From: Mayamaea pseudoterrestris
Taxonomy: Eukaryota
Assembly (NCBI GenBank): GCA_027923505.1
Contig: BROI01000035.1
Location: 186,001-248,439 of the forward strand
Length of the DNA: 62,439 nt
Reading direction: 5' to 3'
Made by a program: the position numbers and the translations under genes. The notes beneath the pieces were generated by a model that saw only the letters and a program-made list of their open reading frames with translations, made no database searches and had not been told where the DNA came from. Below, piece by piece: positions 41,857 through 62,439 of this stretch. Position 1 is the first letter of the stretch. Every line of letters starts with the position of its first letter.

Positions 41857-42208
41857 GCTGACTTCCTGTTGGCCTGTTGGCTGCTGAATGGAAGCAACAA
41901 GGCTACCTACGTTTGCACTCTCGTCAGACGCCGGTCATAAAAAATGATGCACTTGCTTGATGCTTCATTTTACCAGCCCTTTTTGGACAACAATACAAGT
42001 CAGAAGCGTCGCGTCATTTTGGATTTTGATGGGTTGCAATCGTTGAATGTCAGTGCGACATTTTGGATCATTCAGCAACGAAGTTAGCTATGCATGATTT
42101 GCCGGTATAAATAGCCATTGACTTCTACGAGAAATAATTTCCATTTGCACCATGTACAATACAAAGGACGTACAGGAGTACAAGTGGTAAGAAGTGCAAG
42201 GCCATGGC

Positions 42209-45200
42209 ATGATTCCAAGTCTCATTCAAGATACCGGTACGACACACTGGGAATCTTCAACCTTGATGCAGAAGCGAAACGTTTTTGACCCAACGCCGAT
42301 CTATCATCACCATGACAAGAATCGCCAGGCGCGCGACGCATGGCAAAACAGCGTCAAACCTAATATGAATAATCAGATAGTAAATGAACAAGACGATATT
42401 GATTTGGATGACTTTCTAGATGATCTTTTGGATACAGCGGCGGCGACAGCAGCAGACGCCGAGGCGTCACTCCTTCGAGAATGTGACAGCACCAATACCG
42501 CACTTCCGTTGACAAGTATGTATTCTCCAGCGGAGGATAATATAAAAGACAAGAAATTCGAATCAAGATGTATCCAGCAGGATCAGCTACCATCCAGTGC
42601 CTTGCTTTCGTCCAAGCGCGAGTCAAAGATCCCGACGCCGACAAACATTCGCAAGAAAGACGCGATCAACCGTAAACATGAAACGACGTTCGTCTCCGCA
42701 AATTCCGATGAAATTATTCAGCGCCAGCCAGTCTCTGTTGAAAAATCTGATTGCAGCGTAACGGGAGCTTCAATAAACATGAACGGTACTACGCGATTGC
42801 CAGCAGAAAGTCGAATTCCAGCACCCAGAATGAACTTTAGCAAAACCAAACCATCCAAGTCACCAACGATTCCACAAGCACCTCGACTGCATGCGTCGCG
42901 ATTCAATAAACGGGAAATGAGTCAGGAGGATCCTTACGCCATGGCCCAAGCTGATCACGTGCTCAAAAAGAACTTGCGCAGCAGCCCAGAAACAGCATCC
43001 AGTGAAACGAGCAAGCGATCGCCAACCCATACTACCATTTCGCAAGCACCTCGCCTACATCAGTCGCGAGTCAATAGGCAAGAGATTAGTATGGAGGATC
43101 CATATTCCATGGCGCAGGCTGACCATGTACTGAGAATGGCTCTGCGAAATACCGGTAGTCCACAGACTTGTTCAAGAAAAAGCAAACGATCGCCGACTGG
43201 CATTACTGTCCCAAAAGCACCAGCATTTCATCACTCAAATCGAAAGCAGCAAGCAAAACAGCAGCCAATGCAGGCGCAAGTGTTCATGGCACAGAGTCTT
43301 GATTTGCTGAAAAAGAATTTAAGAAGCTCTCCCATCGCATCACCGAATTCTCCTGCATCGCCCTCGAAAACTATTCCGCAAGCGCCAACTTTTCATTCAG
43401 TTCACGAACGAAAACTACCAAAGAGTCGTGATGAAATGGAATTGGAAAGCATACAACAATCTACGACCTTTAAAGCGACTCCCATGCCAGACTTTTCCTC
43501 GTTGGCGACGATACCAGCGATCGATTCGCCGAACCGAACGAAAGCAACACCGACTATTACCGAGCCGTTTCATTTCCAATCCGAGGATCGAGCAGCTCAT
43601 CACAAGAAGCCAGAGGCTAGTGTTGACAAGGAAGCTTTGGATTTGGAAGAATGCAAGAACAAATTCAAGGCTAGGCCCATGCCAGGCGAGTTCAAACAGC
43701 AGCGCCATCGAATAGACGAGGAGGCGAGTGATTCACCGACAAAATCGACTACATCGACTCGGCTAACCATAGACGAACCTGCTTTTACTCCATTTAAAGC
43801 TCGACCTATTCCGCAATCTACATACATGTCGCCCGAAAACTATCACTCCGTCTCGTCCGTGAGTAGTCACAATCTACCGCAAATGATTGACTCGGTCGAC
43901 TTGGAGGCAACCCTTCATGAGCAAAATGGTCAATATAACGACAGTAGCAATAAAGTGGACCATCTCGACGGGTCGTTGTCTACCTCGTCAGCGGAAAAGA
44001 GATTACGGCTCGAGGAATACAGGCGCAAAAAGGACGAGAAGCGAAAGTTTGAGCAGGAAGAGGAGCTACGGCGACGCGAGTTTCATGCTCGTCCACTCCC
44101 AAAGTCGATCCAGCAGCAGCTAAATCATAGGGGTGAACATGAAATGATAAAAAAGAACACTATAGGACATGCCGATGATAGAACAGCATTTACATTCCAT
44201 GCGCGACCGCTGCCAAAGTCCATCGCACTGGAGTTGCAGCAACGCACTAGCAACAATAAGAGGAAGCCACTTATTGGAGAAGAAACAACAACGTTTAAGT
44301 TTCTCGCCCGCCCGTTGCCAAACTCGACTGTTCCAAAAATACTCAAGCGCAACGAAGTGAAATCAGCTGCGCACGATGATACCATGGGTGTGAACATTGC
44401 CGACGGAAAGAAAAGTTGTGTAAATCAGTCGACGACTACTTTGTCGCTTAGCACCAACAAGATATACGCAATAAAGTCGCCGAATGCCAACAAAGATACG
44501 ACGGACCCGCAAATACATGTTCAAAGTCACAAAGGTTCGGCATCAGAAGTGCAGAATGCAAGCGAGTATCAGGCAGGTTCGATGCCTGCATTGACAGAGC
44601 GATTCAATGCAATGGTTAAGATGAACGCAAAAACTGCAAGAGAGTTTCGAGCGGGCGCTCGTTTTGATACGGAGTCGAATGAAGACAGCAAGGCTGCTGC
44701 ATTATCTCCTTTGAATGCGTCGACAGGACGAACAACAGTCTCTTGCGAATCTTCTAAACCTACCTCCTATAGCCAGCATCCACACTCAGTCAAAATGTTC
44801 ATCTTGATATGCATCGTTCGTCTCGTCAATACTCATTTCATCCAGTCCTACTTTGAAGCCGATGAATACTGGCAAACTCTTGAGCCGGCCTACTGCGCTG
44901 CATATTTTCCTGACCATAACGATTGTTCAGGGCTGACCTGGGAATGGAAACGCCGATCAGGTCTCGACGTCGTGTCGATCAGTGATATGTTGATGGCAAG
45001 TATGCTGGGACCTGTGCGGACATACTTGTCCGTGCTGCCAACTTTCTTCCTTTACAAGATTGCTCAATTCTTTGGTTTGGACTCTAGTGGGATGATAGCT
45101 CGCGGCCCGATGATTCTCAACTCTATAATTGTAGCAGCGTCAACAGACTGGTGCGTCTGGTATTCTGCTCGGTGGTTGCAAAGAGACGGCGCAGGCAATT

Positions 45201-46666
45201 ACAATATTTCTATCCCACGATGGTGCCTCTTCGCTAGCTTGGCGTCTTGGTTTAACGCATATTCTTTGGTTCGGACACTTTCCAACTCGCAGGAGACGTG
45301 TTTTCTTGCGATGGGAGTTGCCCTGCTCAGTCCAGAGCTACTTGGAAACAAGAACGGCAAATGGTCGGTTGTAAGAGCCGCGTTTGCGTTCTTCATTGGT
45401 GGTATGAGTACCGCTATCCGCTTCACATCGGTCACGTCGTTTCTAATGGCTGGTGTTTTACTGGCTAATCGACAAACAACGTTGCTGCGCCAGCTTGGCT
45501 ATATCATCTTTCCTTGCGGCTTGTTTGGCGCATTGGGTATTGGCATCGCAATGCTTGTGGATCGGTTGTTTTACGAGTTCTGGACAGTGCCATTTATAGG
45601 AAACATCCACTTTAATGTACTTTTGGGCAACTCGTCTCTGTACGGAACTCATCCTTGGCATTGGTATTTAAAATGCGGTTTGCCAGCAGTAACAGGATTG
45701 CTCTTGCCGTTTCTCCTTGCTGATTTTTGTGGTCGGGGTTCATCAAGCTACGGCCGGCGAAATCTTTGGGTAATAGTGATGAGCTACGTGGCGACGTTGT
45801 CGTTAAGCGCACACAAAGAGTTTCGGTTCCTGCACCCCATTCTTCCATTAGTGTGTCTGTTGGCTGGTCCTCGAGTCTCTTCTGTTATGTCCGATTCAAG
45901 GGGGCTTTCTTCTAGGTTCTGTCGATGCTCCTTTGTTTTCATCTTTGCCGTGGCGAACTTTGCGGCCACTCTATATCTAGGGATGCTGCACCAAACTGCG
46001 CCAATCTCAGTCAATCGCAAGATTATTGACTTGACTCGATCAGGGCCTGGCGTTTCGAACACTATCTACTCAATCTACTTCTGGACTGGCGATTGTCACT
46101 CGACTCCTTTGCATAGTCATCTTCACTCGCCCACATATCAATTTGAAACTTGGTCTTTGGATTGTTCGCCCATTTGCCTTACAGATCCAGCTATCATGTG
46201 CGAATCAGAACGTTTCGCTGCCGACCCATTGTCATTTGTCAATGATGCCTTGTGCACTACTGATGAAACAATGACACGTGTTTGTGACGCTGACGGGCAC
46301 AGTGCGCAAGTTTGTCGAAACATCGCTTCCCCATGCTCGCATACTCGAATGGTTCCTGATTTCGTTGTCACGCGCTCACGTTATGAAAATATTATCCGCC
46401 GTCCACTTGAACAATCGGGTCTGCGAGAAGTGGCAAGATTCATTAACTCTATTCAAGGGCTGCGAGTGATGGACCGAGTCTTTGGCAGCGAAAGTTTTGA
46501 CGACGGTGCTTTCCGGCATCTAGATCCGATGGGCATGCTTGATTTGCTTTTAAGCGGCCGCTTCAGAACACTTACCACTGTCGAGCATCACGACCAGAGT
46601 TTTCAAGCGGTCCACAATGTATTAGAGTTTAGTATCGACGAAATGATCCTATTCTCTAGAGTGTAA
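42209..46666 (+). CDS. PIGB: Single ORF joining an N-terminal TPX2-like repeat region to GPI mannosyltransferase 3 (PIG-B/Gpi10, GT22)
   Basis: The part from about 44795 has SYFEADEYWQTLEPAY, LTWEW, YGTHPWHWY, HKEFRFLHPILP and CHSTPLHSHLH. The first about 860 aa carry repeated TIPQAP, PFHFQSEDRA and F(K/H)ARP(M/I/L)P motifs. Confidence 0.8.
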   Translation: MIPSLIQDTGTTHWESSTLMQKRNVFDPTPIYHHHDKNRQARDAWQNSVKPNMNNQIVNEQDDIDLDDFLDDLLDTAAATAADAEASLLRECDSTNTALPLTSMYSPAEDNIKDKKFESRCIQQDQLPSSALLSSKRESKIPTPTNIRKKDAINRKHETTFVSANSDEIIQRQPVSVEKSDCSVTGASINMNGTTRLPAESRIPAPRMNFSKTKPSKSPTIPQAPRLHASRFNKREMSQEDPYAMAQADHVLKKNLRSSPETASSETSKRSPTHTTISQAPRLHQSRVNRQEISMEDPYSMAQADHVLRMALRNTGSPQTCSRKSKRSPTGITVPKAPAFHHSNRKQQAKQQPMQAQVFMAQSLDLLKKNLRSSPIASPNSPASPSKTIPQAPTFHSVHERKLPKSRDEMELESIQQSTTFKATPMPDFSSLATIPAIDSPNRTKATPTITEPFHFQSEDRAAHHKKPEASVDKEALDLEECKNKFKARPMPGEFKQQRHRIDEEASDSPTKSTTSTRLTIDEPAFTPFKARPIPQSTYMSPENYHSVSSVSSHNLPQMIDSVDLEATLHEQNGQYNDSSNKVDHLDGSLSTSSAEKRLRLEEYRRKKDEKRKFEQEEELRRREFHARPLPKSIQQQLNHRGEHEMIKKNTIGHADDRTAFTFHARPLPKSIALELQQRTSNNKRKPLIGEETTTFKFLARPLPNSTVPKILKRNEVKSAAHDDTMGVNIADGKKSCVNQSTTTLSLSTNKIYAIKSPNANKDTTDPQIHVQSHKGSASEVQNASEYQAGSMPALTERFNAMVKMNAKTAREFRAGARFDTESNEDSKAAALSPLNASTGRTTVSCESSKPTSYSQHPHSVKMFILICIVRLVNTHFIQSYFEADEYWQTLEPAYCAAYFPDHNDCSGLTWEWKRRSGLDVVSISDMLMASMLGPVRTYLSVLPTFFLYKIAQFFGLDSSGMIARGPMILNSIIVAASTDWCVWYSARWLQRDGAGNYNISIPRWCLFASLASWFNAYSLVRTLSNSQETCFLAMGVALLSPELLGNKNGKWSVVRAAFAFFIGGMSTAIRFTSVTSFLMAGVLLANRQTTLLRQLGYIIFPCGLFGALGIGIAMLVDRLFYEFWTVPFIGNIHFNVLLGNSSLYGTHPWHWYLKCGLPAVTGLLLPFLLADFCGRGSSSYGRRNLWVIVMSYVATLSLSAHKEFRFLHPILPLVCLLAGPRVSSVMSDSRGLSSRFCRCSFVFIFAVANFAATLYLGMLHQTAPISVNRKIIDLTRSGPGVSNTIYSIYFWTGDCHSTPLHSHLHSPTYQFETWSLDCSPICLTDPAIMCESERFAADPLSFVNDALCTTDETMTRVCDADGHSAQVCRNIASPCSHTRMVPDFVVTRSRYENIIRRPLEQSGLREVARFINSIQGLRVMDRVFGSESFDDGAFRHLDPMGMLDLLLSGRFRTLTTVEHHDQSFQAVHNVLEFSIDEMILFSRV

Positions 46667-46729: not shown

Positions 46730-47485
46730 TCATACGTTGGCGGATGGCGTCGACTCCAATGACTTTAATGGACACTGGAAGGATTGTATAATAGTCAATG
46801 GCTCAAGCAGCTCCACAAGTACCTGCAGCAAATCCTCATTGGAATCTCGCTTCAATTCTAGCTCAACTTCCTTAAAACAAGCAGCGTACGCACACTGCGT
46901 AAATCCCAAACTCCGGAAGAGCTGTAGCGACGCCGAGTTGTTTTCCTTTATTTTGCAAAACACGCGACGTACTTGCAAGTGGCGAGAGACGAGGTAGTGC
47001 ATCGTCAAACAAATCGCCTCTCGACCAAGTCCCTGACGCTGGTAGCTTGGCGCAGCAATCATAATATCAATTTCGGCCTGCGTCGGCTCGAGCGACTCCT
47101 GCGACAAAGTCGCATGCGATACTTGATAGTGTTCATCGTCTGATTTAATTTCTTCTTCGATTTGTGATAGAAACATGTTCACATCCCCTGCCATTGCGGA
47201 AAGCGTTTCTTGTATAAAATCGCTGGATTCGCCTTTTGCTAGTGACTGCAAAACGTTTTCGTCGACGGCTTGTTTCGCCAATACGATATATGTACATTTA
47301 TTGGGATCGTCACGCCAAGTCTCCTGCATCTCATACTCTTCGTCACGCGTCAATGGATCGGATGCAGTCGCCTCCAGCATCAAGGGGTCTTGCATCCACA
47401 CGTGATAAACTGCTACATGCTCTTTTCGATAGGGAACGAGAATGCATTTCCCCCCAACTATCACTTCCTCGTAGTTGAGTAACAT
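46730..47485 (-). CDS. NAT9: N-acetyltransferase 9-like (GNAT)
   Basis: Motifs LVPYRKEHVAVYHVWMQD, ATASDPLTRDEEYEMQETWRDD, MAGDVNMFL and AEIDIMIA...RQGLGREA. Confidence 0.92.
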   Translation of the reverse strand: MLLNYEEVIVGGKCILVPYRKEHVAVYHVWMQDPLMLEATASDPLTRDEEYEMQETWRDDPNKCTYIVLAKQAVDENVLQSLAKGESSDFIQETLSAMAGDVNMFLSQIEEEIKSDDEHYQVSHATLSQESLEPTQAEIDIMIAAPSYQRQGLGREAICLTMHYLVSRHLQVRRVFCKIKENNSASLQLFRSLGFTQCAYAACFKEVELELKRDSNEDLLQVLVELLEPLTIIQSFQCPLKSLESTPSANV

Positions 47486-47853
47486 GGCTTCCGGAATGGT
47501 ACTTGTTTATGTGAAGACTTGGAACAAGCTGCGTTTGACGAGCTGAAAATCATGGTGACGAACGTAGCGAGCCTCAGCGGAAAAGGGAACGATGACACGA
47601 TCATGATTATTATTTGGCACGATTAAATTGTGCCTCCCGGTATGTCATTGATATTTAATTTACTATTGCCTTGACGCTAGGCGCGCACCGCGACCTCACA
47701 GTCAACAAGATAACAATGTCGTATCGGTTGTCGCTTGAAACCGGAACGACATTCTTCGTGTCCTCCAATGATGATGATGAGTCGAATCGCTTGGTTGACC
47801 ATGGCTTCCACATCTTCCTCATCAGATTCGCATACATTTACTAGAAATAGACA

Positions 47854-48450
47854 ATGAAGGAAGACTTGATGGAAATGTCTCGCCGCGAGCGCGTCATGCA
47901 GCTGCATGAGAGTCCCTTGTTCATGTCGAATGAATGGGCTATTCAAACAGTCCTTGCAGGAGTCGCCATCACCATCATTGGTTTGCTCATCCTCTACTCG
48001 ACCTTTTCGGCTCTGGTAGAACGCACGACTGTATCAAGCACTCCAGTATTGACCAAGCGTCGATTGGCTTATCAAGCGACGAATCTACTGGTGAATTGCT
48101 TCCTCGGCTTGTCGGGAATATACTGCGAGTTCTTTGTCAAGCCAAGCGACACGCAGCTCCAAGTCGAGCAAGTCATTACAAACTACAATCACTTTCAATT
48201 CTTTGGAAACTTTCAACTCGGATATCAACTTTGGGCCATTCCAGTCGGAATTTGGTGGGTCTCAGAGTCTACTCCCATGCTCATTCATCATTGTGCTACC
48301 ATTCTAGTGGCCACCATGAGCTCCTTCTGCACCAACTCGTTGTTCTACGGACTCTCTCATTGAGATTACAGCGTTCCACTTTCAGTCATGAACACTTTCA
48401 ACCATCCGAGAAACATCCGCTGGTATACTTGGCTGTGCGATTGGTATTTG
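47854..48450 (+). pseudogene. TLC (TRAM/LAG1/CLN8) domain membrane protein, frameshifted and cut off at the LTR element
   Basis: TM helices, GYQLWAIPVG and MLIHH motif. The frame breaks near 48340-48400, and the continuation HPLVYLAVRLVF ends at TGTTGG (48451). Confidence 0.65.
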
Positions 48451-48636
48451 TGTTGGAGAACTGACCGAACTAAGTAGACAGAACAGAGTCAATAAAACCA
48501 CTTTACTTATTTTCTCCAAGAAGTGATCGTCCTCGATCCACTCCTTCGGTTGCCGCTTACCGCGCTTACTTAAATGTGACCGTCTTCGTGACGTCACCGC
48601 TGCCGCTTCGGTTTGGGTTCTCATCCATGCTCAACA
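48451..48636 (-). repeat. 3' LTR (186 bp)
   Basis: The sense strand begins TGTTGAGC and ends TCTCCAACA. 48479-48636 is identical to 53495-53652. The pol ORF runs into it. Confidence 0.85.
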
Positions 48637-51600
48637 CACTCCTTTGGGCCGAGTAGTACTTACTGCTCGAGGCCAGATTCATAACCAGGTTGCGGAGCTT
48701 GCCAAACTGGGCTCCCTGCAATGGTTTCGTGAAGAAATCCGCGACCATGTCTCCGGTCGGACAATGCTCAATGTTGACTTCACCAGCTGCCACGCGATCT
48801 TTCACAAAGAAGTACCGAACATTCATGTGTCGCGTGCGCTTTGTACTTGAGCTTCTGCCATTCTTTTCCAACAGCATTGAACTCATATTGTCTTGATACA
48901 ATTTCGTGTCTTTGACCCCGAAACCTTGCGCCTTCAGAAAATATCCTGTCCACAGCAACTGCGGTAGCACATCATGAACTCCCACAACTTCGCTCTCCGT
49001 CGAGCTTCTTGTTACCAACTTCTGTTTAGCCGACGTACTGTACACTGATCCTTGGCCAAGTGTCATTGTTCCACCAGTGTGACCCTTCATGTCTGGGTGC
49101 ACCGCGTACGACGCATCCACCCACCACTGGACTATCCCGGACTGGTCCGCCTTCAGCGTCAACACCATGTCCACGCTTCCGCGTAAATATTTAATCACTC
49201 TTGCAGCCTTCTTATAGTCGTCTTCGTCAGGCTGCTGCAGCCTCGTGCTCAAGAAAGAAATCGCTGTGCGAATATCCGGTCGCGCTCGCTGACTCAGATA
49301 CAGACACTGCATCACAATCGTCACAAAAATCTGCTTCTTCGCTTCGCTCAACATGACAGGATTTTCCGATATCTGAAACAAGTGACTGGCTGCCGGAGTA
49401 GCTGCCGTTCCATCCATGTCGTCTGGCGCATGATGCAGGATGTTCTTCACATAGTCAACCATGTTGATTGCTACTTCTCCAGGCTTAGTATAGTCCAATA
49501 CCATGCCGAGGTAGTCGTGCACTTTTCCGCGTGACTTATTCATTGGAGTCTCCTTGCCAAACTCCTCATCCATCTGCGCGATGAACTCATCCACTACGCT
49601 CACGTCGACGTGCGAAATCTTCAAATCGTCCACGTGCCATCCCACGGTGATTTGCTTCCCATTGACAATCTTGTTGCACACACACGGATCGTACGGGTTC
49701 TTCTCGAAGCCCCACTCAAGCAATTTTGCGGACAACTTCTCCCAGAATAGTCGCGCTGCTCGAAGCGTACCATAAAGCGCCATGAGTAATTCAACATACA
49801 TGACTTTCTCGCCATTCTCCATTGTGACGCAAGGCTCGTACATCTCGCGATCAATTTCCAACAGTAGCTCCACCATCTTCCCAGTGAAACGAACGTGCAC
49901 CAACTCATCCATTTCCGCTTGCATGAAAGCACCCGGTACATCAACCACAGCAACCTCGCGCCCTTCCATAGCGTCAATGATAGCTGTCAGAAAGATGGCC
50001 TCTGTCGCTATCGTTGGAGATGCTGCGTCTTCCTTTGCAGTGTATGCTCGTTGCTTGCGTCCATCCGCGCATCCGCGTCCCTTCACAGTCCCGCATCTCT
50101 TGCGCTTGAGAAACATCAAATACGCCAGAGCGTCCTTGCGCTGCTGCGGAGTCAGAGTGCATTGGGGGACTGCCTTCATGACGTGCCTGTCGTGTAGCTG
50201 CTGCATTTCCTTGCGCACTGCCTCCACTCCAGCATCGCCAAAAGCCTTTAAACCTTGTCGCATATTCATCTGTGCCGTGACGAGTGGCTCCGACACTTCC
50301 TCTGCAGCGTCGAGCGTGAACAAATGAGCGAACGAGCGAGGTTTGCGCGCACGCAGGCCATACCGACCAGTGCGTGGGCCGCCAGCGCGCATCGAAATCC
50401 TCTTCGTCTGCAGCAGCTGGCACTCCTTCAATTTCGCCTTCATCGGGCACTCCTTCAATTTCGCCATCATCCACGGCTGGCGCGTCGTCAAGTTCGCCGT
50501 CAATGGCCTCACCATCCTCGTCGTTCGGCACTCCTTCGATTGCGCCGTCAGCACCATCGTCGTCGTCGTCGTCGTCATCGGTCGCATTCACTCCTTCGCT
50601 TCCGCCGGCAGAGTCGTCGTCACCGCGAGAAGCGTCGTCATCATAATCAGAGTCATCATCATCCTCGGCGTCATCTTCGTGCCACATGACTGGCTCAGCA
50701 GCCTCCGCAACACGGTGGCGGTCCATGAACACGATGCCCGGATTGGCCTTCTGTTGACGAGCGAGACGATGCACGCGCTCAATGACATCATCAGGCATGG
50801 GCAAAGGCGTAGCGTGCCCACGATTCAGAACTTTGCCCGAAGACAAACTGAGGAAATAAAACCCACCCTGCACATTACCAGTCGGGCGCAGAGCCAGCGC
50901 ACCGATCGTGCGCGCCTGCATGTCATTGCTGTGCGACTCATGCGTTTGCACATACTGACCAAATTCATACTTGCAATGCCGATTAAAGTCAACTGTCTGA
51001 CCAGTCACAATAGTGCGTGGACTGAGATCCTTCGAAATGCCACGCTCGTTCGGAAACGCATTCAACCAAAACACGGCAGACTTCGTCATTTCGATAACCA
51101 AGCGTGCCGGCACGTGCTTAAATGGCAACGTGTTGTATGTCGCGCGCACCCGTTCTTTCACGACACGGATAAAACGTTCAATTTCGCCAACGTGTTCATC
51201 CTCAGATGTCGCATTGAGCGCCACTCCGAGATCAGCCAACGCGCCAAGCATTGGAGCGAACTCCCCATCCATCAGAGCCGCGACGACACGGAACCCACCG
51301 CGTGCGTAAATCTTCAACACAGACTCGATTGCCTTCAACATAACCGGAAGCGTACGGTTTTGAATCACCTCAACCGTAGCAAAACGAATGCTGCGGGAGA
51401 ACGTCACCAACATAGGGACTTTGTTGATATACATGATGTCAGCACAAAGAGTAACGTCTCGATAGCGACTCATGATAGCCGGTGGAAGCTGCTCAACAAT
51501 CGCAGGCTTCACCAGATGCGACGCGCGACGCGTCGTCTTTCCTTTTAACGAGCCAACATCTGGTCCAAAGATGTGCTCAGCAGCCAGGATGTCGGCCTTC

Positions 51601-53414
51601 GTCACAGGACAGTTCGGCAACTGATTGCTAGTAACGATGCGCAGGTAATCCTTGAGGCTTGGCCGTCCAATTTTGATTTGCAGTTCCCTAGCTCTAACAG
51701 CGCGTAAATAGTCATCATTGGTGTAGTTAGTACGGTTATCGTCTACCGTAGTCAACATCGCCACTCCATCCTTGACATCGCTGCGCTTGCCCTTCGAAAA
51801 GCTCTCGCAAACATACAGCCCAGAGTCAGTCTCGACAAACTCTCGCTGCTTACCATCCGGCTTCTCCACAACGAACATTGGACGATCCACGCCGTGCATG
51901 AGATACTCCACGGTAAACTTCTTGCGGACTTGCGCCAAACTCAAAATGTTCGCCAGTCCCTGCGGATACCACCACACCGGACCATAGCCCTCCAGGTCGC
52001 CCATCATGTTCGTCCTTACTGTACCAGCGTTGCACTTGATCACCATCCACGTTGGCACCGGGCGAATGTTCGTCAGCATCTTGGCGTTGCAGAACAGATC
52101 CACTGTCGACTGATTGTCCAAGAGCACAGCCTTCTTCGAGATGTTCACCTTCGGCGGCTGCGCGAACATGTATCCGACCTCATCGTCGTCATCGCTTTCT
52201 TCCTCGCTACCCAGCGTGAAGTGCTGCGCCCCACTAGCCTCTGCAGCCGGCGCACTCTCCGTAGACTCCGTTCTCGTAGGACAGTCTCGCTGCACATGAC
52301 CAACCTGTTGACAGGTCCAGCATCTGGGAGGGTCACGCGCTGTACCAGTCGTGTGAAACGCCACGCCCTCGTTCGTTGGCAACGTGGCTTCTCCATCCGC
52401 ATGCTCACGACGCTGCATGATGTTGTATGCATCGTGGATCGTCAACGGGAAGTTGTCGTGCCCGTCGAGGTAGCAGTTGCGCAAGTGCTTGCAATACCCA
52501 GCGTATTCGCCCGTTGCGCCACGCACGAAAAGCATCGCAAGCTCGAGCTCTTCGGCGGCCTTGATATCCTCCTTGTTCGCCTTGTTACGATTGTCATCCT
52601 TGGCAATGTTCAACGCCACAATCTCGTTGTGCATCGTGACGCCAACCGCCTTCGCCACGTCTGCCAGCGTGACCATGCTTTCGTAATATTTCTGCAGGCT
52701 TTCGCGCGCTCCTTGAGTACGTCCGAACAACTCAGCTTGAATGTCCACGACTTGATCCACAAGTTTGCAGCGCCCTTCGTACGTATGCGAGATCTCCTTG
52801 ATAATCGCCAGCAACTTAATTCCGTCCGTGTCCTCCTCGGCGTCTCGGAACTTGGCGTGCGACTTGACACGATCCTTCATACGCTCCGTGCATTGTCCAT
52901 GCAACACGGCGTAGAGACCAGCGAGGAAGTCGGAGTATACACGCACGCGCTCGACATGCTCTTTCTTGTCGGCCTTGTATTCCTCGAGCATTATGGACCA
53001 GTCCGAGTCCGTCGTGTCGGCATCCTTCGTTGGACGTGCAGGCTCGTCAGGAATCTCCAGTTCCACGTTGCGCATGCCCTTGAGCAGCTCCTTGGTATAT
53101 TTCTTGTAGGAGCGCCCGACGAAAGTGATGATCTCGTTCGTCGTACGGATGAATCCATCGGGATCGCGCGAACCGTTATAGTCGTAGATGAATCCAGCGA
53201 GCGTCGGCTCGCTTCCTTGGAAATTTCCACTCGGCGCACGACTCGGTCCGTTGAGTCTGTTACCATTGCCTTGATTCCCGGAACGATTCCCAGCACGATT
53301 CCCACGACGATAATGACGGTTGCGTCGGTTTCCTTCGCTTGCTGGCGGAGCGGGAGGTGCACCTCCACCGCTCGACGCCGCTCCTGTCGTCGGAGTATTG
53401 CTCGTCGAAGACAT
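48566..53414 (-). CDS. Gag-Pol polyprotein with one frameshift near 50380
   Basis: Zn knuckle CWTCQQVGHVQRDC (52281-52322), protease LLDNQST, integrase (ADIMYI, MDGEF, EHVGEIERFIRVVKER), RT (VDVPGAF, LYG, WHVDDL) and RNase H (VDASYA, QDN, ADFFTK). The two ORFs join as DAR/x/GPRTGRYGLR if one base is removed. Confidence 0.92.
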
Positions 53415-53441
53415 GTCTTTTCACTCGCTTCTTGGAGAAAA

Positions 53442-53652
53442 TGTTGGATCTAGAATATATCTTGCGCGCCCTTGAAGCGACACTAATGATTAAGCAGAAC
53501 AGAGTCAATAAAACCACTTTACTTATTTTCTCCAAGAAGTGATCGTCCTCGATCCACTCCTTCGGTTGCCGCTTACCGCGCTTACTTAAATGTGACCGTC
53601 TTCGTGACGTCACCGCTGCCGCTTCGGTTTGGGTTCTCATCCATGCTCAACA
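53442..53652 (-). repeat. 5' LTR (about 211 bp if the inner end is the GATCCAACA at 53442)
   Basis: The sense strand begins TGTTGAGC, has the 158-bp shared core, then 53 unique nt ending TCCAACA. Confidence 0.75.
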
Positions 53653-53869
53653 GAGTCATCGATGGGTGCTCGCGGCGGCAACATCCGAATTCTTCGATGC
53701 TTCCACATCAATTCGGTAGTGCCTACAGCACCCATATAAGAATTTACAGCCTGTCATTTACTTCCTGGAGCATTTCACTCGTCAAATCATTTGGAAGATC
53801 ACATTAACGTCCAGCAAGAATGGCATGGTCATGGTGTCATTTCGACATGGTTTAAAACCGCTGCGTTGA

Positions 53870-56706
53870 CGATGTTAAGTGGTGGTACGACGCCACCACG
53901 TCATGTCAGAATTCCATGGAACGCTTTCGCGATCCAGAAAGTGCCACACCATCATCAAGCAACTCCGAAGGTCGTCGAAGAAGAGAGGATCATAACCACC
54001 ATTGAACGCTGGTGAAAGCGAAATTGAAAGTAGAGCGCGGAAGGAGAGACGTGCAGAGCCTTTATACACCGCCACTATAATCAATACAGTGCAGTTAAGC
54101 ATGGCGGCCATTGCAGCAGTCAAAGCAGCATCTATTTCCAATTCTACAGGCTCCATCCTTCAAAGTTCCTACCATTACACCAAATCTATCATTTCTTCCG
54201 TCTGCAACTTTGTCTTGCCCAAATGGACGACGCATTACTACAATGACATGCCAACCCTCGGAGACCTTTGGCATCAGTATATGGAAGGTGAAAACAAGAC
54301 GTCAATTGCTGAAGTCTGGTTGAAGCATTTAGACACCAATGGCGATGGAACCGTCAGTCGGAATGAGCTTATTACCAATATGAATGACATGCTGCAGCAA
54401 TACACGAATTCGAGTCGAGCGAAGGAGTCATGGGCCAAGTGGTTTAGCCGCGAATGGCCGCTGATGGATTGGAAGGTCGGAGTTTTCTTATGGAAGAGTT
54501 TTGGAGGAATTCTCGTTGTCTTGGCTATTTGCTCCGTCACGCCGGGGCGATTGCATGGCATTAGCGCTAAAGTTTTTGCGGTGGCCGCTGCTGGGGCTCG
54601 TTTACTTTTTAATTTGGGTCGAATTGTTGGTGTAACGTCGTTATTCGAATTGGAATCATGTGCGCCGAATATCTCATTGCACGTCCCAAGCATCGCAAAC
54701 TACGCAAACTCATGAAAGCTGCCAGCTATGACGAGTGGCAAATAAACGCCAAGAAGCTCGACGCATCGCAGCATCGTCAAAAGTGGCTGGATCGCGTTGA
54801 CGATGAAACTTCCCACGAGTACAATTGGGGATTTATATTGGAGTTGGTTAAGGATTTGAGGCTGGCGCGAGAGAATAACGATTCCATTCTCGCCTTGGCC
54901 GTTTTGCAGCAATGCACACGCAAAAATGTTGGCGGCATCATGTCGGAAGACTTGTTTAGCTATTCGAATACTGGGGAACCAAAGACGATTGTCAGAAAGT
55001 TTGTCAGCGAAGTAGTGGAGACCCTGCACTGGATCACCGATGGCGCAAGAAGTGTCGAGCAAACCACGAGAGATAATGCAGACATGTCCAGTCGCGAGTT
55101 ACTGGACTATGAGCAGCTTCTCCAAAGCAAAGTGCGCGACGAAAAACCAAGCTTTTTGGTTCGTTGATTGATGCGACGATTCACGACCCGCGTGACATCA
55201 ACGGCGAATACAACGAAAATGGTGACCATTACGATGCGAATGGGCATGGCAGCAGCAGCGGTCATTTAGGGAGGACTTGGCGCCCAATTCAAATGGCGAT
55301 TCTAAACTATGACAGTAATTTCAATAGTAAACCCTTGCCAGTTTTTCATCGAGGACAAGTTCTCATGTTTCTTAAGCGAGCGAGGGGCAGCCTATGGAAG
55401 AACCGCATTTTGCATGTCGGGTGGGGCCATGCTCGTACGTTGTTCAAGAAGAGAATTAAATTGATTGTATTGTATCGATTTCTCAACTGCTCTTTGTCCT
55501 CGTCCGCTTTCGCAGGGTTTATACCACTTCGGAGTCATTTCGGCGCTCCTCGAGGCAGTGTGCTTGCCTCGAATTATCAGCGGCACGTCGGCAGGCAGCG
55601 TCATTGGGGCTATTATATGCACGCGAACCGACGAGGAGCTGAAACGAGACCTGCAGCCAGGCATACTGTCGCAAAAGCTTTGCTGCTTTCGTCGTCCGTG
55701 GAAGGATCGAATCAAGAGCGTATTGCGTAATGGCTGCATGTTTGACGTTGATGAGTGGATGGAACTTATACAATGGTTTTCGCAAGGATCAACAACATTT
55801 TTACGAAGCCATCAGAAGACGGGACGTATTTTTTGCATCACGCTGTCGTCCACGTCCAAAAAGAGTCCACCGGTGCTACTTAATTACCTTACGGCGCCAA
55901 CCGTGACGATTGCCTCGGCAGTGATTGCATCGTCTGCTGTTCCGTGTTTCGTTCCGCCAGTGCGCTTGCAAGTAAACCTTGAAGATGGGTCCGTGCGCGC
56001 AATCAAGGTGGCGAGAAGGAGCAGGCGTTTTGGGATGGTTCGATTCAGCAGGATATTCCGACCCAAGGACTCAGTGGAATGTTAAACTGTCAGTTTTCAT
56101 TGCGTCACAATGTAATCCGCATATCATTCCGTTCTTTTCTAATAGCAAAGGCGGCGTTGGTAGGCCAAGTCGTTGGTCGTCGGGAAAGCAAGAGACGTCT
56201 TACCGGGGAGGTTTTCTTACTGAGCGCACTGGGGATGTATCTGAAGACGGACATGAAGGCGAAAATGTCGTTTCTTAATCAAATGGACGCTGCGGTAGGA
56301 CCGGTGAAAACAATGTTTGTTCAACGCCTAGGCACCTACAATTGTGCCTTCGGTAAAGGCCGATGGATTATACAAAGGTTATTCACGGACCCTAAGGAGG
56401 CCGACTTGGATCACTGCTTTCAAGCTGAGCTGTAGCAGCATATGGGCACATCCCAATGATTAAACTTCACTACATGATTGCGGATGCAATAGAGATGCGT
56501 CGCTCAACTGGAAAATAGGAAGACGGCAAGTCGACGGCCGGAGCCTCGTGCACACCGCTGCGAAAGATCGGATTCTGGTTCCGCGAGCGACTGGGCGGAC
56601 ACTGCTTTCACGGCATTGCAAGCAGTTGCCGATGACGAGGAAGATATTTGATACGCACACGCTGCTTTCTTTCTTAAGCTTCAGTCCTACCTACATCCTA
56701 CAGTAG
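53870..56706 (+). pseudogene. Patatin-like triacylglycerol lipase (SDP1/TGL-type) with an EF-hand; multiply frameshifted, boundaries approximate
   Basis: Fragments include DTNGDGTVSRNEL, AASYDEWQINAKKLD, GLYHFGVISALLE..LPRIISGTSAGS (GxSxG), LLNYLTAPTVTIASAVIASSAVP and FIASQCNPHIIPFF, with a probable intron near 55436-55515. This may be an intact gene with sequence errors. Confidence 0.8.
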
Positions 56707-56766
56707 CGTCATAGTCACTCAATGTAACCTACTTTATTCTGAAATATGCATATATCGTTTGATCGT

Positions 56767-59700
56767 CTACATGTTGTCCCAATCAATTTTCTTGATCTTC
56801 GAATACAGCTTTCCGTCGGCACTCTCCTCGCGAACCACTTGGAAGTACGATTCCGGCATGAAAGCCGGTAAGGGACGCAAGCTCAGTCTTCATCATCACT
56901 CACAAATTCTTCGTCATGCGTAATGAGTATCAACTGGAAATTACGCTGTTGCGATCGCGAAGCAACAATTTGAGCCAACGCAATTGCAAGACCTTTCTTA
57001 TTTTCGTACTGTTGAGATGAAGACGAAAGTGGGAGTGAAAGTGGTCAATCGACATTGCGTGCTGCATCGAGACGTACATCCAAGTTCACCGTTGGCTCGT
57101 CGAGCGCAATGCAGCCGCAATCAATTCCAAAGCTTTCAGCCAGGCCAGGCGGATGACAATGCACTGGTGGTGATGAGAAGCACATATCGTTAGATCAGAA
57201 TTCAACCAATAACACCGCTGACAAGCCAGCGTACAGCAAGAACGCGTTGTCCTGCTGAGCAGCGACCACGCATGTCGGAGTTCTGTAGAGCCTTTCGTCA
57301 TGACGACTCGATAATTATACGACTTCTGGGCGCGTGCACCTGGCTCTTGTCCGCTCTGGATCACGATATTAGTAATGTCTTCGCCCTTGTACGTCATCAG
57401 CCACAGCTCGCGAATGCTTTTGTTGATCTCCGCCAGCTTTTTTTGCGTGAAATTGTAGAAGTGCCGAATCAAGTGCCTGCTGATATTTTTCAGCTCTGCG
57501 GCCGCAATATGCGTCGTCTCATACTTAATAGTTGCCTTGCGGTGTTTCTTGTCAATGTCTCGGTACTCAGGTTGATTGAGCCGTACCGTGAGACTACGAA
57601 TGCGATCGCGAATCTCGAGTATCGACCCTGGGAAAGGTTTCTTCGTCTCGAGAAGTTTAGCTCGTTCGCGTGCTTGAAGGAGTTCATCTCGCGCCGTTGC
57701 ATAATGTTCGATCAGACTTCATTGCTCGTTTCTTGTCTCGCTTGCTCGTAGCGCGGCTAGCTTGTTCTTTTCTTCAATAATTTGAACGTTGTCTGAAGTT
57801 GCCGCTTCCGGCGCTCCTTGTTGTTATAAATATTGCGAAGGTTGTCAAGTATGAGCTGCGACGCGGATACTTTCTCCTTCAAATCTTTAATATGGTCAGC
57901 GTAATTGTCTAGGGTCGAGAGGATGCGTTGGTGCTCCTCGGCCTTGTTAGAGTTTGAGTAAGTTCTCGATCTGATGCGTGATGGTCCCCAAGTGTTGAAG
58001 GCTAGTGTCAAACTCTTGAATGGCGCGATAAGCTTCGACTCTTCTGAGGATCCTTCTTGACGCAAACGCTGCTTCTCGGATTCTCTTTCTTTGACGCGCA
58101 TGCTCAAGGAAGGGATGTCGATCGACCTGAGAAAGGGTGTACTGATAGGTTAGTCGAACGATATTTATAGATGTCGCAATGTCCGACGCAACCATGCTCA
58201 CCTGCTTTTCGCGTTCCGCAAGATTTTTTTGAGTTCAAATCTCATTCTTGCGGTTTCATAGCTCGTTCGGAGTCAGCAAACTTCGTTGCCTTCTCCTTCG
58301 CTCGAGATTCGGCACTCGCCGCCTAGCAAAATAGAGGATTGGAATGTTGGTGTTGTGCACATACAGACACGAAATCCACGCGCTTGAGTACTTGCCTGTT
58401 GTGCCGTTTGCGAAATGAGCTGGTTTAGCTTCGTTGCTTCGTGATTTAAACCAGTCTTTTTGCTACTGAGACGATCGATTTCTTCAGTGACGGCCGTATA
58501 CTCGCGGTCGACCGTGCGTCGATCACGGACACTTGCCGATGACTGATTGAGAATAGCCAGATCCTTGCGCTTGCTATGAATTGTCATCGCTTTTTGACCA
58601 ATACGCAGCGACGTATCCTTCCACCGATCTGAAGCTTTTGCAAGTTCCTCCAAGTCGACAGCTTCTGCCCTTATCCTCCATCTCATCTTTGGCTCGAGCA
58701 AGAATGTGCGAAAGCAAATTGACCTCACCGTCCAACGATTGGTTGTCGCTCTCGCGAGCTTTTAGTTCGGATTGCAAGTCGACATAATTTTGGATAGCAG
58801 AGCTATGTTTATCAATGGTCAATCGCCAGGATTGATACTCCGACTTCGCTGCTACGCGCTCCTCGGCCAAATCGGAAAGCAATGGAGAATTGTCGGACCA
58901 CAAGAGCTTTCCCCGGTCTGAATATGTTCGAAGTTTTTCCGGCGTATCGAGCTTCTGTTCACAGCATGGACAAACTGGATTGTTCGAATTGGCCAACTTG
59001 AAAAGCCTTTTCCTGTAAGGTAATCAAAACTTGACATGAGAGGATGACTGGAACAACAACTGGGCGCATGCGCGTGCGACTTACATCACAGACTTGATAA
59101 CGCTTGTCCGGTTGATGCAAGCAGCTGTCATTTATATCTTCAATCTTCTCATCAATGAGCTTGCGAAGTGCAGTGAGTTCATTTTCCATTTAAAAGTACG
59201 CCAGGGTTGTCCTCTCGCAATTTTTCGACAACAGCTCGAACTTTTACAACTCGCTCCTTCGCTAACATTCTTCTGCTGCTCAAGAACTTGAAGGTTTTGA
59301 CGAATCGTGCGAAGCGCCCAGCTCTTCTCGGCGAACGCGCTCTCTTGTTTGTTGTAGGCACTGGTGGCCATCCCAAGCCGGTCTTGCGCATCGTTAAACT
59401 TGTCACGAATCTCGATTCCCATTTGTTCAACAGCATCGACAACAGCCTGACCGTCACCGCTCATCTTTGGCAGCTTTTCTAAGTCCTGTAAGTTAAAACG
59501 ACAGAGAAGACTTGAGGTAGTCCTTGACTGACTCTTCCTAACGTCTCATATTCGCGGCAAGCTCCTCATCCAGCGTCGCAATGGCCGTGTGCATGCTTCC
59601 GCGGATTCTTGTAGAGCGTCAAGCTCAACCTTGATGTCGTTTGTTTGCGCTAAGCTCTTCCACCTTGTCCTCGATCTGACGGATTTCAATTTCAATATTC

Positions 59701-61799
59701 TGCAATCGAGGGTCGCTGTTCGCTTCATCGCGCTCATTGGCTTAAAACAAGGAGGCACACGCGTGGTGAGGAACTAGAAATATTCATAATGGAACAAACC
59801 CTACAAGAAGCAACGTACCTAAACGCTCCGCGTTTTCTTTGCCTCCTCGATACCGCAAAAACAAGCATTGTCTTTGCCGGGGTCCATTGCACGGCTGAAA
59901 AATGGGGCATGAACTTGCTGCCTCGCCTCGACGCAATCGCGAGCTGCTGCTAATGTCCTTGTTTAATTGATTCATTTCCTCTCTACCTTCTCGTTTCTGT
60001 TTTAAAGCTCTTCTTTGTCTATTGAATGTAAGTTAAAGATTGCTTGAGCGACACTAATCTTCACACTCTCCCAATCATAATTTACCCTTTTCAAGAGCGC
60101 CGAGTTTGCCGCCAAGATCGAAGATCCTTTTGCCGAACATCTTCGTCGCGCTGGACCCGATGCTTGTGCTTCTTCAGGTCAGACTCATTCGTTTAAATCC
60201 TCCCTTGCGAAAAGAAGTTTTGCATATCTTCTTGCGAAATTTCAGCCAGCTGCTCGGTGTCGACCGACTGACTCCCTGCCGTGAGCGACTGACGGAACGA
60301 CGTGTTGATTTGCTGCGACTGCGTGTATTGTAAGCTGGAAATTGTCGGGGGCTTGCCCTCCTTGGACGAGGCGCTGTCGCAGATGCTGCTCGTCGTCTCC
60401 TTTTTCGAACTCAGTTTGCCACGTCGACTTCCGTCGCTTTTGTGGGGCTGTCAATTTGTCTTGAGCTCTTGAATTTCGCTTTCTAAGCTCTTGCTTTGCA
60501 GTTTTCCTTCCAACGCTGTTGTCAGTCTGCCAGCATTATGGAAAGGTCGTCGAGCGTGTGCGTTCCCCGACGTGTCAGTGTCGACCATCTTCTGTTGGCG
60601 ATCCGGTGCAGCCTTATCTGGTCGACCATGCCTTGCGCATCTTTGAAACTCCGTTTGAATTCGTCGATCTTATCGACAATGCCTTCGTGGTAGTCAATAT
60701 CTTTTCCGTCGTTTCAATTTCCTTGCCAACGTTAATTCTGGCGTTGGCCAGTCTTCCTCCGCCTCTTTTCTCGCGAAGTTCCGGCGGTATTACGGCCGTC
60801 TTGGGTACTATCGGGGCCAGCAAGAGTGATTTTAATATGCCCTTTTGCTCCAACCAAGTCCTTTTCCTTTTTGCGAAAGGCGTCGAAAGCCGGTGTACCG
60901 AGTGCTGCGCGTCAGCATCAATGGATGGCATAGGTAAGGAAAGAGATGCGAAATTACCGGTGGCATGAGTAGGCGTTAACCGATCAAAAATGTCGTCGAA
61001 TTTCTTTTTGAGAACAGCACCCTCCTGCAACGGCCAGGACCTTCCTCCTGGTGACAAAACAAAACATTGTCTAGAATGGCCTTTGAAATACCGAGCAGGG
61101 CTGGCAGCGTCGAATCAAGCTCAGAACATTTGTGGGAGACAGATTGCTGCGTGTACCAGTGACTGCATCCGACGTACGGATGACTCCATCCGGCTGCTTG
61201 GATGAGGTGTCGTTTTGTTCGCGTGAGTTTCCATCGAGCGAATGACAACCGTTGGTTTGGCCCGTCCGCGTATGTTGAAACGCAGCTTGACAGTCGCCTT
61301 GGATTGTTTGCTTCCGCTGGCGAGGATCTGTATGGGTATTGTATAAATGTAATGATTGTCGGTACCGCAGGTGAGAGAGTGAGATGGTACAAGCTATAAA
61401 GCAAGGAAATGTCACCACCACTGACTCACTATGAACAAGGGAGCTTGACCAGCCTTGCTGCCAGCGGGCTCAATGTTGTACGCCGCGGCCATTCAATAGT
61501 GGTGGTCTTGCCGCAACCGTTTCTAAAATGAAAGGAAGTGCCGTCATGTTGAGTTGAAACTGAATCGAGGAGAAGGAGACACTCACCACCCATTCACCCT
61601 TCTCGTAGTATGAAAAACTTACTGCCCGACAATATCGTGAAGCGGAGTAAATTCGACAATCTGAAGAGTAGAGCACAGGAAACCTGAGTCTGCCGGTAGT
61701 AGCTTCATGTACCGATATCAATTCTCAGGCGCACCTGCTCTCGTCCTCGGGCGAACGCTCCGGACGCCTCGAATGCTGAGTTTGGCGGAGAGACGACAT
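56767..61799 (-). pseudogene. RAD50: DNA repair protein RAD50, multiply frameshifted in this sequence
   Basis: N-terminus MSSL..KLSIRGVRS, GISKAILDNVLFCHQEE, WPLQEGAVLKKKFDDIF, Zn hook CPCC, EINKSIRELWLMTYKGEDI...SYNYRVVM and [13 protein letters not shown]; stop at 56767-56769. Confidence 0.9.
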
Positions 61800-62439
61800 T
61801 TTGTCTCTTCCTTTTCGTGAGTATTTTATGTAGTGTAGTAGCGGTCAATGGCTTTGCTTGTATATGATTTACGGTAGATTAGTCAAGGGCAAAGGTTTCG
61901 CGACGGATATCATTCGGTGGTTGATTTTGTGTTGCGATGCGATCACGCCGGATCTTCGCGCCAAAACGGATCTTTCCGACTTGCGACTACCGGTACCGTC
62001 TGATTGCGAAGAACGTCTCGGCGAGTCGACTGCTGATTGGGGGGCCACTTTTCTCAAGCTATAGCTGTCGTATGAAAGATATAATTAGCGCAAACGGAGC
62101 GTAATAACATAAACCTTCGATTAGTGGTAGTAGTATCTTGTTTGGTTTTGTAGTTCCCGCGTAAAGTGGCGCTCAGAACTCGTTGCTGCGGCGTTGGCGA
62201 ATGTGCACGCCGGCCCGCCCTGTACAAATCCTACCAGGCCCTTGCCCTGGTAAACTCTACGGGACCCTCCGCCACCGTTTTTGGTCACACACCATTACTA
62301 CGCGAATATTACACGGCCTCATGAGCGCATTGTTTACCTTTAAAAATGTCCTACCGGCTCTGTTACGTTCATCTCAATCAGACGGTATGTACCGGTATAC
62401 AATGCAGCTCCTTGCGCGCCACAGTATATGCCGCTAGTG

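What the first reader, a model, noticed from the sequence alone, without database searches (positions are those of the whole stretch)
48451..53652. LTRs identical for 158 bp but with unrelated U5 ends, both ending in TCCAACA
Seen: 48479-48636 equals 53495-53652 exactly. The sense ends then diverge: the 3' LTR has TCTACTTAGTTCGGTCAGTTCTCCAACA (28 nt) and the 5' LTR has CTTAATCATTAG...TAGATCCAACA (53 nt). The 3' end also carries TTCTCCAA, complementary to the same LTR segment as the putative PBS. Known: canonical reverse transcription yields identical LTRs. Inference offers three options: (a) a recombinant whose strong-stop DNA came from a co-packaged sister element, so the breakpoint marks the R/U5 border; (b) an intrinsic asymmetric-end architecture with non-canonical replication; (c) a genomic or assembly chimera.
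Basis: partly seen in the sequence, partly recalled or inferred. Interest (0 to 1): 0.72.

Follow-up and report, generated by a model that had tools for sequence, protein, structure and literature searches.

The report
Assembly error in self-priming diatom retrotransposon
The mismatched ends of this diatom jumping gene are almost certainly an error in the assembled sequence, but the element and its relatives carry a real and unusual feature: a primer site that pairs with the element's own terminal repeat instead of a host tRNA.

Summary
The letters are as described, but the 28-nt end is very probably a local assembly error (about 0.9). It occurs once in the genome, and 27 of 29 other 3' LTRs carry the normal 53-nt end. 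The same insertion site on contig C31 and in an independent run's contig shows the normal end. Just upstream, the window lacks 28 letters that C31 and three runs have. The copy also lacks a target-site duplication and joins flanks of two loci.

What is real is a young diatom Ty1/copia element with no tRNA-type primer site. The 14 nt after its 5' LTR pair perfectly with an LTR segment starting right after an initiator-like TCA. All 19 testable relatives (of 40 loci) keep a 14-15-nt pairing, with 9 different primer sequences counting the window. This is the geometry of Tf1-type self-priming; the priming itself is inferred. The scan has noted this signature before on other DNA (35 findings). Class and score refer to this signature; the asymmetry alone is not a real feature (about 0.05).

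The parts
48451..53652 (-). Ty1/copia LTR retrotransposon of a diatom; young, multi-copy family
   Evidence: Order gag (CCHC), protease-like DNQST, integrase-like D-D-E, RT, RNase H (motif labels other than the Pfam hits are recalled). LTR searches gave about 90 candidates; the 40 scored were 97-100% identical. An identical RT protein is on record from a diatom.
53442..53652 (-). 5' LTR, 211 nt, TG...CA, with the family's normal 53-nt end (53442-53494)
   Evidence: 100% identical over 211 nt to the 3' LTRs of two C31 copies
48479..48636 (-). Part of the 3' LTR identical to the 5' LTR (158 nt)
48451..48478 (-). 28-nt end of the 3' LTR as assembled; very probably a consensus error in place of the normal 53-nt end
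   Evidence: Unique in the genome; normal end at the same site on C31 and in run X7; uncovered in X1, X5, X7
48336..48420 (+). Garbled stretch of the host gene: cluster of small indels, net 28 letters missing, frameshifting the reading frame
   Evidence: Anchor distance 125 in the window vs 153 on C31, while 47701-48335 is identical; contigs of X1, X5 and X7 each show 28 gap letters; frame open on C31, broken in the window
47854..48450 (+). 5' part of a host gene with a weak TLC-domain match, interrupted by the element; an empty allele exists
   Evidence: PF03798 E 3e-4, below its curated cut-off; 16.6-kb and 14.1-kb contigs of X1 and X5 continue past 48454 without the element
48446..48450 (+). 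Left flank pentamer ATTTG; does not match the right flank, so no TSD
53653..62016 (+). Right flank (starts GAGTC); also on contig C10, there without the element and with a different upstream sequence
53428..53441 (-). Primer-binding position, 14 nt directly after the 5' LTR; no TGG; perfect complement of 53526-53539
53526..53539 (-). Predicted self-primer (predicted first 14 nt of the RNA); its copy in the 3' LTR lies at 48510-48523
   Evidence: the pair forms the main stem in the fold, though the whole fold is not unusual (z -1.23)
53538..53542 (-). TCACT, matching the diatom initiator-like TCAH(+1)W with +1 on the first primer base
   Evidence: motif from PMC4686930 passages. The start site is inferred, not mapped.
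49974..53420 (-). gag-protease-integrase frame (1148 aa stop to stop), ending out of frame with RT
48566..50587 (-). RT-RNase H frame (673 aa stop to stop); relatives commonly have one frame of about 1600-1750 aa
48637..48645 (-). Short purine-rich tract before the 3' LTR (putative PPT)
   Evidence: a similar tract precedes the LTR in 4 of the 6 relatives printed (seen by eye, not counted across all loci)

Best explanation
1) The asymmetry is not biology. The family has ordinary identical 211-nt LTRs. In this copy the assembled consensus is corrupted over about 140 nt across the left junction (48336-48478), deleting host-gene letters and turning the 53-nt LTR end into a 28-nt string. Shown: comparison with C31, other copies and read contigs. 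Inferred: that the cause is a poor consensus or polishing step. 2) The copy also joins the left flank of one insertion site to the right flank of another through the near-identical element. Shown: no TSD, empty site on C10. Undecided: assembler misjoin or ectopic recombination. 3) The element most likely primes its own minus strand (about 0.75). RNA would start at the initiator-like TCA inside the 5' LTR, its first 14 nt would fold onto the 14 nt after the LTR, and a cut after nt 14 (RNase H, by analogy with Tf1) would free a 3' end abutting the LTR edge. Ordinary strand transfers then give identical LTRs. Shown: the complementarity, its register and its conservation with changed letters. Inferred: start site, cleavage and priming. 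The confidence given is for part 1.
For: Asymmetry as error: unique string; 27 of 29 other 3' LTRs normal and 12 of 18 other paired copies with TSD; same site with normal end on C31 and in X7; 28 letters missing just upstream against C31 and three runs; host frame open on C31 only. The assembly is error-prone in this family: open frames of 180-1617 aa among 30 copies at 99-100% identity, and 14 of 89 overlapping locus records have an incomplete or diverged LTR, some only because a locus or contig ends. Against C10 the window's right flank lacks 159 letters and C10 lacks 65, rising towards the contig end. Self-priming: run of 14 nt in 18 and 15 nt in 2 of 20 sequences, anchored exactly at the LTR end; 0 of 300 shuffles reach it in each; 154 other AACA sites reach at most 8; 9 distinct primers sharing only 2-9 of 14 letters; TCA before the primer in 16 of 20, CCA in 3; no TGG in any.
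Against: Only one contig (X7, depth 4.1) shows the filled allele at this site; X1 and X5 show the empty allele and X6 has no cover at 48326-48433. Contigs drop rare variants, and the runs need not be the assembled clone. No long read was seen. Past its first 7 nt the 28-nt end is not significantly like the normal end, so 'degraded copy' is not shown by alignment. The C9 copy leaves the normal LTR at the same base as the window, with different letters. The C31 copy is itself odd: it shares only about 1 kb of flank and its 5' LTR is cut short. For self-priming: no RNA evidence; the fold energy is not unusual (27 of 200 shuffles as good); 10 of the 19 relatives share one primer; 4 of the 19 had no tblastn-confirmed gag next to the site, and two of those (L135, L141) were counted as testable after the pairing was seen; L144 lacks the TCA.
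Confidence: 0.9

Rival explanations
1. The 28-nt end is real in the assembled clone: a one-off scar of error-prone repair (clustered small deletions, template switches) at a rearrangement that also joined the two flanks.
For: No TSD and flanks from two loci; recombinant TSD-less copies are described in another diatom (PMC2806351 passages); the runs laid may not be the assembled clone.
Against: It needs five or more separate small indels within 140 nt on both sides of the junction. The assembly itself holds the undamaged version on C31, and similar garbling recurs at other LTR ends.
Confidence: 0.06
2. Recombinant cDNA: strong-stop DNA from a co-packaged sister element supplied a different U5, so the breakpoint marks the R/U5 border.
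For: A second copy (C9) departs from the LTR at the same base.
Against: No donor in the genome (the assembly may be incomplete). The same insertion has the normal end. By established reverse-transcription logic both U5 copies derive from one strong-stop DNA. The C9 replacement differs and repeats its own flank letters.
Confidence: 0.02
3. Intrinsic asymmetric ends with non-canonical replication (option b).
For: Only the window's own letters.
Against: 27 of 29 other 3' LTRs carry the 53-nt end; all 12 TSD-bearing pairs have matched ends.
Confidence: 0.01
4. For the primer site: the LTR-PBS pairing is a structural or regulatory stem (packaging, translation, presenting the site), and priming uses a tRNA fragment or another RNA.
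For: No RNA or cDNA data here. Half-tRNA priming, which needs no TGG, is known in other copia lineages (PMC6317226 passages). Genome tRNAs were not compared with the site.
Against: The site's letters change freely between families while always matching their own LTR, start exactly at the LTR edge and stop at 14-15 nt, and the partner begins at an initiator-like motif. A tRNA-constrained site should be conserved.
Confidence: 0.2

Closest known systems
Tf1/Tf2 of Schizosaccharomyces pombe and the Tf1/sushi group (Ty3/gypsy)
   Same: [quoted passage not shown] In Tf1 the first 11 RNA bases pair with the PBS and RNase H cuts between bases 11 and 12 (PMC7175516 passages).
   Different: Other superfamily: here integrase precedes RT. 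The pairing is 14-15 nt, not 11. Start site and cleavage are not shown here.
TAR lineage of plant Ty1/copia (Houba, Osr-1)
   Same: Copia elements predicted to self-prime by at least 10 bp of complementarity starting 0-5 bp after the 5' LTR (PMC6317226 passages); this element meets that criterion.
   Different: Plant lineage; relationship to this diatom family not tested (no tree built). That paper presents self-priming there as proposed or predicted.
CoDi (Copia from diatoms) elements
   Same: Diatom host, copia domain order, short TG...CA LTRs, recent insertions, and TSD-less copies read as recombinants (PMC2806351 passages).
   Different: The main text says nothing on priming (0 hits for tRNA, priming, Tf1, primer binding); its supplement could not be read. 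The CoDi subgroup was not determined.
Fungal GalEa copia with a Conserved Hairpin Site
   Same: Copia lacking a tRNA PBS (PMC5445492 passages).
   Different: Their hairpin lies wholly downstream of the LTR and the authors found no LTR complement; here the partner is inside the LTR.

Membership tests
Element with intrinsically asymmetric LTRs (as proposed) | All copies have the 28-nt end at 3' and the 53-nt end at 5' | tested here: not met
   27 of 29 other 3' LTRs have the 53-nt end; the 28-nt end is unique
Element with intrinsically asymmetric LTRs (as proposed) | Independent reads carry the 28-nt end at this site | tested here: not met
   X7 shows the normal end; nothing covers the 28-nt end in X1, X5, X7; short-read contigs only
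Ty1/copia | gag-PR-IN-RT-RH order with RVT_2-type RT | tested here: met
   zf-CCHC and RVT_2; motif positions (protease, integrase and RNase H motif labels recalled, not Pfam hits)
Ty1/copia | Identical TG...CA LTRs and a TSD | tested here: met
   Met by the family (12 of 18 other pairs with 5-bp TSD); not met by this copy as assembled
Ty1/copia | PBS complementary to a tRNA 3' end (starts TGG) | tested here: not met
   No TGG within 8 nt of the LTR end in 20 of 20; usual but not universal in copia
Half-tRNA-primed copia (Osser, Bryco, Bianca) | PBS complementary to an internal tRNA segment | not tested
   Genome tRNAs were not compared; the window has none. Site letters vary between families.
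CoDi | RT groups with CoDi reference elements in a tree | not tested
   No reference CoDi sequence was on hand; named homologs are from diatoms
Tf1-type self-primed elements (mechanism) | At least 10 nt right after the 5' LTR complementary to an LTR segment, in priming register | tested here: met
   14-15 nt in 20 of 20 testable sequences
Tf1-type self-primed elements (mechanism) | The complementary segment is the very 5' end of the RNA | tested here: inconclusive
   TCA before it in 16 of 20, CCA in 3, fitting TCAH(+1)W; no RNA ends were mapped
Tf1-type self-primed elements (mechanism) | RNase H cleavage frees the primer, which is used for minus-strand synthesis | not testable with these tools
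   Needs RNA or cDNA experiments
Tf1/sushi group (membership) | Ty3/gypsy order (integrase after RT-RH) | tested here: not met
   Integrase motifs precede RT

The most novel reading that the evidence does not exclude
A broad diatom Ty1/copia lineage has dropped tRNA priming. Each family starts its RNA at a host-type initiator inside the LTR and uses a fixed-length primer of about 14 nt cut from its own 5' end, whatever the letters. This would be an origin of Tf1-type self-priming outside Ty3/gypsy and outside plants. The C31 copy at 199268-204393, where the primer segment is followed directly by the reverse complement of the LTR end, may be a fossil of the primer-plus-strong-stop intermediate (that last part about 0.2).
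Probability: 0.72. Interest if true: 0.6.

Novelty: new variant of a known kind. Interest (0 to 1): 0.38.

Why it matters
The flagged asymmetry matters only as a warning: in this assembly the junctions of a young, near-identical repeat family are unreliable, so odd LTR ends, frameshifts and missing TSDs should be checked against reads first. The priming signature matters more. In the passages I read, self-priming is described mechanistically for Tf1 (Ty3/gypsy) and only predicted for one plant copia lineage. A diatom copia lineage with a length-fixed, sequence-free self-primer would show repeated escape from tRNA dependence, would predict each family's transcription start to the base, and would explain why tRNA-based annotation finds no PBS in such elements.

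Tried and rejected
Sister-family donor for the 28-nt end: none.
Alignment proof that the 28-nt end is a deleted copy of the 53-nt end: significant only with the shared first 7 nt included (p 0.007 and 0.004), not without (0.16 and 0.33), so not used as support.
Reciprocal junctions: no LTR-plus-ATTTG junction, no exact copy of the host gene's continuation, and the C10 upstream flank occurs once. Misjoin versus real recombination stays open; absence in an incomplete assembly proves little.
Fold energy of the leader: not unusual.
More copies of the C31 inverted 5' end: only that one.
No tRNA genes in the window.
Twelve metagenome loci without a recognisable 5' end gave runs of at most 7 nt; two of them (L124, L149) have long sequence after pol but no detected gag and cannot be judged. 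Nine loci that do not reach an LTR were not scanned.
Literature: searches listed no paper whose title or abstract start describes self-priming in diatom copia. Subscription journals are not covered; the supplement of PMC2806351 could not be read and those of PMC6317226 were not opened.
Earlier scan notes on asymmetric LTR ends or near this place: none.
Full report
Observation. The window holds an LTR retrotransposon on the minus strand at 48451-53652. The stretches 48479-48636 and 53495-53652 are identical over exactly 158 nt. In sense orientation the 5' LTR continues for 53 nt and the 3' LTR for 28 nt, both ending TCCAACA. The coding part has a CCHC knuckle and an RVT_2 reverse transcriptase, with protease-like and integrase-like motifs before RT and RNase H motifs after it (those labels are recalled), so it is Ty1/copia. 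An identical RT-RNase H protein is on record from the diatom Mayamaea pseudoterrestris, and many relatives have one frame of about 1600-1750 aa. The window's copy is split into frames of 1148 and 673 aa.

Other copies. An LTR search of the genome gave 90 candidates; 40 were scored and 30 fetched. Of the 29 fetched 3' LTRs other than the window's, 27 carry the 53-nt end; the other two (C9, C5) have different irregular ends. Of 18 other copies whose two ends I could pair, 12 have a 5-bp TSD, four have a garbled or cut end, and two with intact ends lack a TSD. The window's copy has ATTTG on the left and GAGTC on the right. The 28-nt end has one match in the genome, exact or with up to two mismatches. 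Intrinsic asymmetry is refuted, and no donor for a sister-element recombinant was found.

The same site elsewhere. Contig C31 carries the same left flank (window 47480-48450) followed by the normal end. The two are identical over 47701-48335. The window is then 28 letters shorter over the next 125 nt, through a cluster of small indels, and 25 letters shorter in the LTR end. The host frame, a weak TLC-domain match, stays open up to the insertion on C31 and is frameshifted in the window. I laid contigs of 4 of the 8 listed runs on 47300-48900. X1, X5 and X7 each show 28 gap letters against the window in that host stretch. X1 and X5 carry the empty allele. X7's contig runs from the flank into the normal LTR end, and all four runs show the normal end before 48479. 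The depth of bin 48434-48487 equals what two contigs give that leave the 28-nt end bare (1768.1, 586.5 and 443.7, expected and observed). So the window is demonstrably wrong from about 30 nt upstream of the odd end, and the odd end is contradicted where it can be checked.

General noise. Among 30 copies at 99-100% gag identity the open frame runs from 180 to 1617 aa. Fourteen of 89 overlapping locus records have an incomplete or diverged LTR, some only through an edge. Against C10, the window's right flank lacks 159 letters and C10 lacks 65, increasingly towards the contig end, where the window lies.

Against this reading. Only one low-depth contig shows the filled allele, contigs drop rare variants, and no long read was seen. 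The 28-nt end is not significantly like the normal end beyond 7 nt. The C9 copy leaves the LTR at the same base; with about a dozen irregular ends a coincidence is plausible, but I did not test it. The C31 copy has its own irregularities. I put the error reading at 0.9 and a real repair scar at 0.06.

Flanks. The right flank occurs on C10 without the element and with another upstream sequence. The copy therefore links two insertion sites. No reciprocal junction was found. TSD-less copies are read as recombinants in Phaeodactylum tricornutum (PMC2806351, passages), so both a misjoin and ectopic recombination remain possible.

What is real. The 14 nt after the 5' LTR (53441-53428) do not start with TGG. 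They are the perfect complement of 53539-53526 in the LTR, in the register in which the 3' end of that segment abuts the LTR edge. The segment starts right after TCA, matching the diatom initiator-like TCAH(+1)W with +1 on its first base (PMC4686930, passages). A metagenome scan gave 40 loci. Nineteen held an LTR end with following sequence (RT 37-67% identical); 15 of these had gag confirmed by tblastn. All 19 and the window show a perfect run anchored at the LTR end: 14 nt in 18 and 15 nt in 2, with the partner starting 98-158 nt upstream. None of 300 shuffles per sequence reached this, and 154 other AACA sites reached at most 8. There are 9 distinct primers sharing 2-9 of 14 letters; ten loci share one. 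TCA precedes the partner in 16 of 20, CCA in 3, neither in L144. Twelve loci without a 5' end gave at most 7, and nine were not scanned. L135 and L141 were classed as testable after I had seen their pairing.

Mechanism. Shown: complementarity, register, fixed length and change of letters on both sides. Inferred by analogy with Tf1, where the first 11 RNA bases pair with the PBS and RNase H cuts between 11 and 12 (PMC7175516, passages): transcription starts at the TCA, the first 14 nt fold onto the site, a cut frees the primer, and normal strand transfers give identical LTRs, as the other copies have. About 0.75. The rival is a structural stem with another primer (0.2); the fold energy alone is unremarkable (z -1.23) and half-tRNA priming was not tested. 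One C31 copy with an intact TSD has the primer segment followed directly by about 62 nt of the reverse complement of the LTR end and then gag. It is single and fits either a captured primer-plus-strong-stop or an inversion between the two arms.

Comparison and novelty. It works like Tf1 but is not a Tf1/sushi member. Self-priming has been predicted for plant TAR copia (PMC6317226, passages). Fungal GalEa copia lack a PBS but have no LTR complement (PMC5445492, passages). PMC3601003 (passages) mentions self-priming only for a hypothetical precursor and chromoviruses. The CoDi paper's main text does not discuss priming and its supplement was unavailable. Searches (listings only) showed no report for diatom copia, within a library that lacks most subscription journals. 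I saw the signature before consulting the scan's notes, which hold 35 such findings in at least 4 genomes, this one included; they are unchecked and not independent support.

Verdict. Asymmetric LTR ends: not a real feature, about 0.05 alone. Self-priming signature in a diatom copia lineage: real at the sequence level, a new variant of a known kind, untested at the RNA level. Overall 0.38.

Noticed in passing
G000 C31:204203-204393 (L156; copy 199268-204393): Copy with intact TSD (ATGCT) and a normal 3' LTR whose 5' end reads U3, the 14-nt primer segment, about 62 nt of the reverse complement of the LTR end, then gag. It resembles primer plus minus strong-stop DNA, or an inversion-deletion between the two arms. 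Single in the assembly.
   Followed up: partly
G000 C9:849819 (L002) and its 5' LTR (L048): Copy irregular at both ends; its 3' LTR leaves the normal sequence at the same base as the window's, with other letters that repeat its flank.
   Followed up: partly
G000 C31:214272-222590: A different LTR element with identical 391-nt repeats and a 2445-aa frame lies a short way upstream of the 1-kb host flank that C31 shares with the window.
   Followed up: no
L058 / L064 (G000 C1:1966192-1966628): 5' end with two LTR-plus-primer-site units in tandem, 256 nt apart; no TSD.
   Followed up: no
L013 and L027 (G000 C15:39308 and C1:1972519): Two 3' LTR copies on different contigs share the same left flank over the 37 nt printed: another duplicated junction or misjoin.
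   Followed up: no
window 47854-48450: The insertion into the TLC-like host gene is polymorphic: empty in the contigs of runs X1 and X5, filled in X7. The rest of the gene has no exact match in the assembly.
   Followed up: partly
L120, L122, L123, L125, L126, L128, L130, L131, L148, L150: This group shares one primer; in L120 about 400 nt with a short extra frame lie between the primer site and the gag start, unlike the roughly 15-nt leader of the window's element.
   Followed up: no
window 53653-62016 vs G000 C10:856911-848454: The last 9 kb of the contig duplicate a stretch of C10 at 96.2% with many small gaps: haplotype copy or misjoined end.
   Followed up: partly
window 42191-46666: A 1491-aa stop-to-stop frame that seems to join a repeat-rich N-terminal part to a membrane glycosyltransferase-like part (resemblance recalled, not tested).
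   Followed up: no
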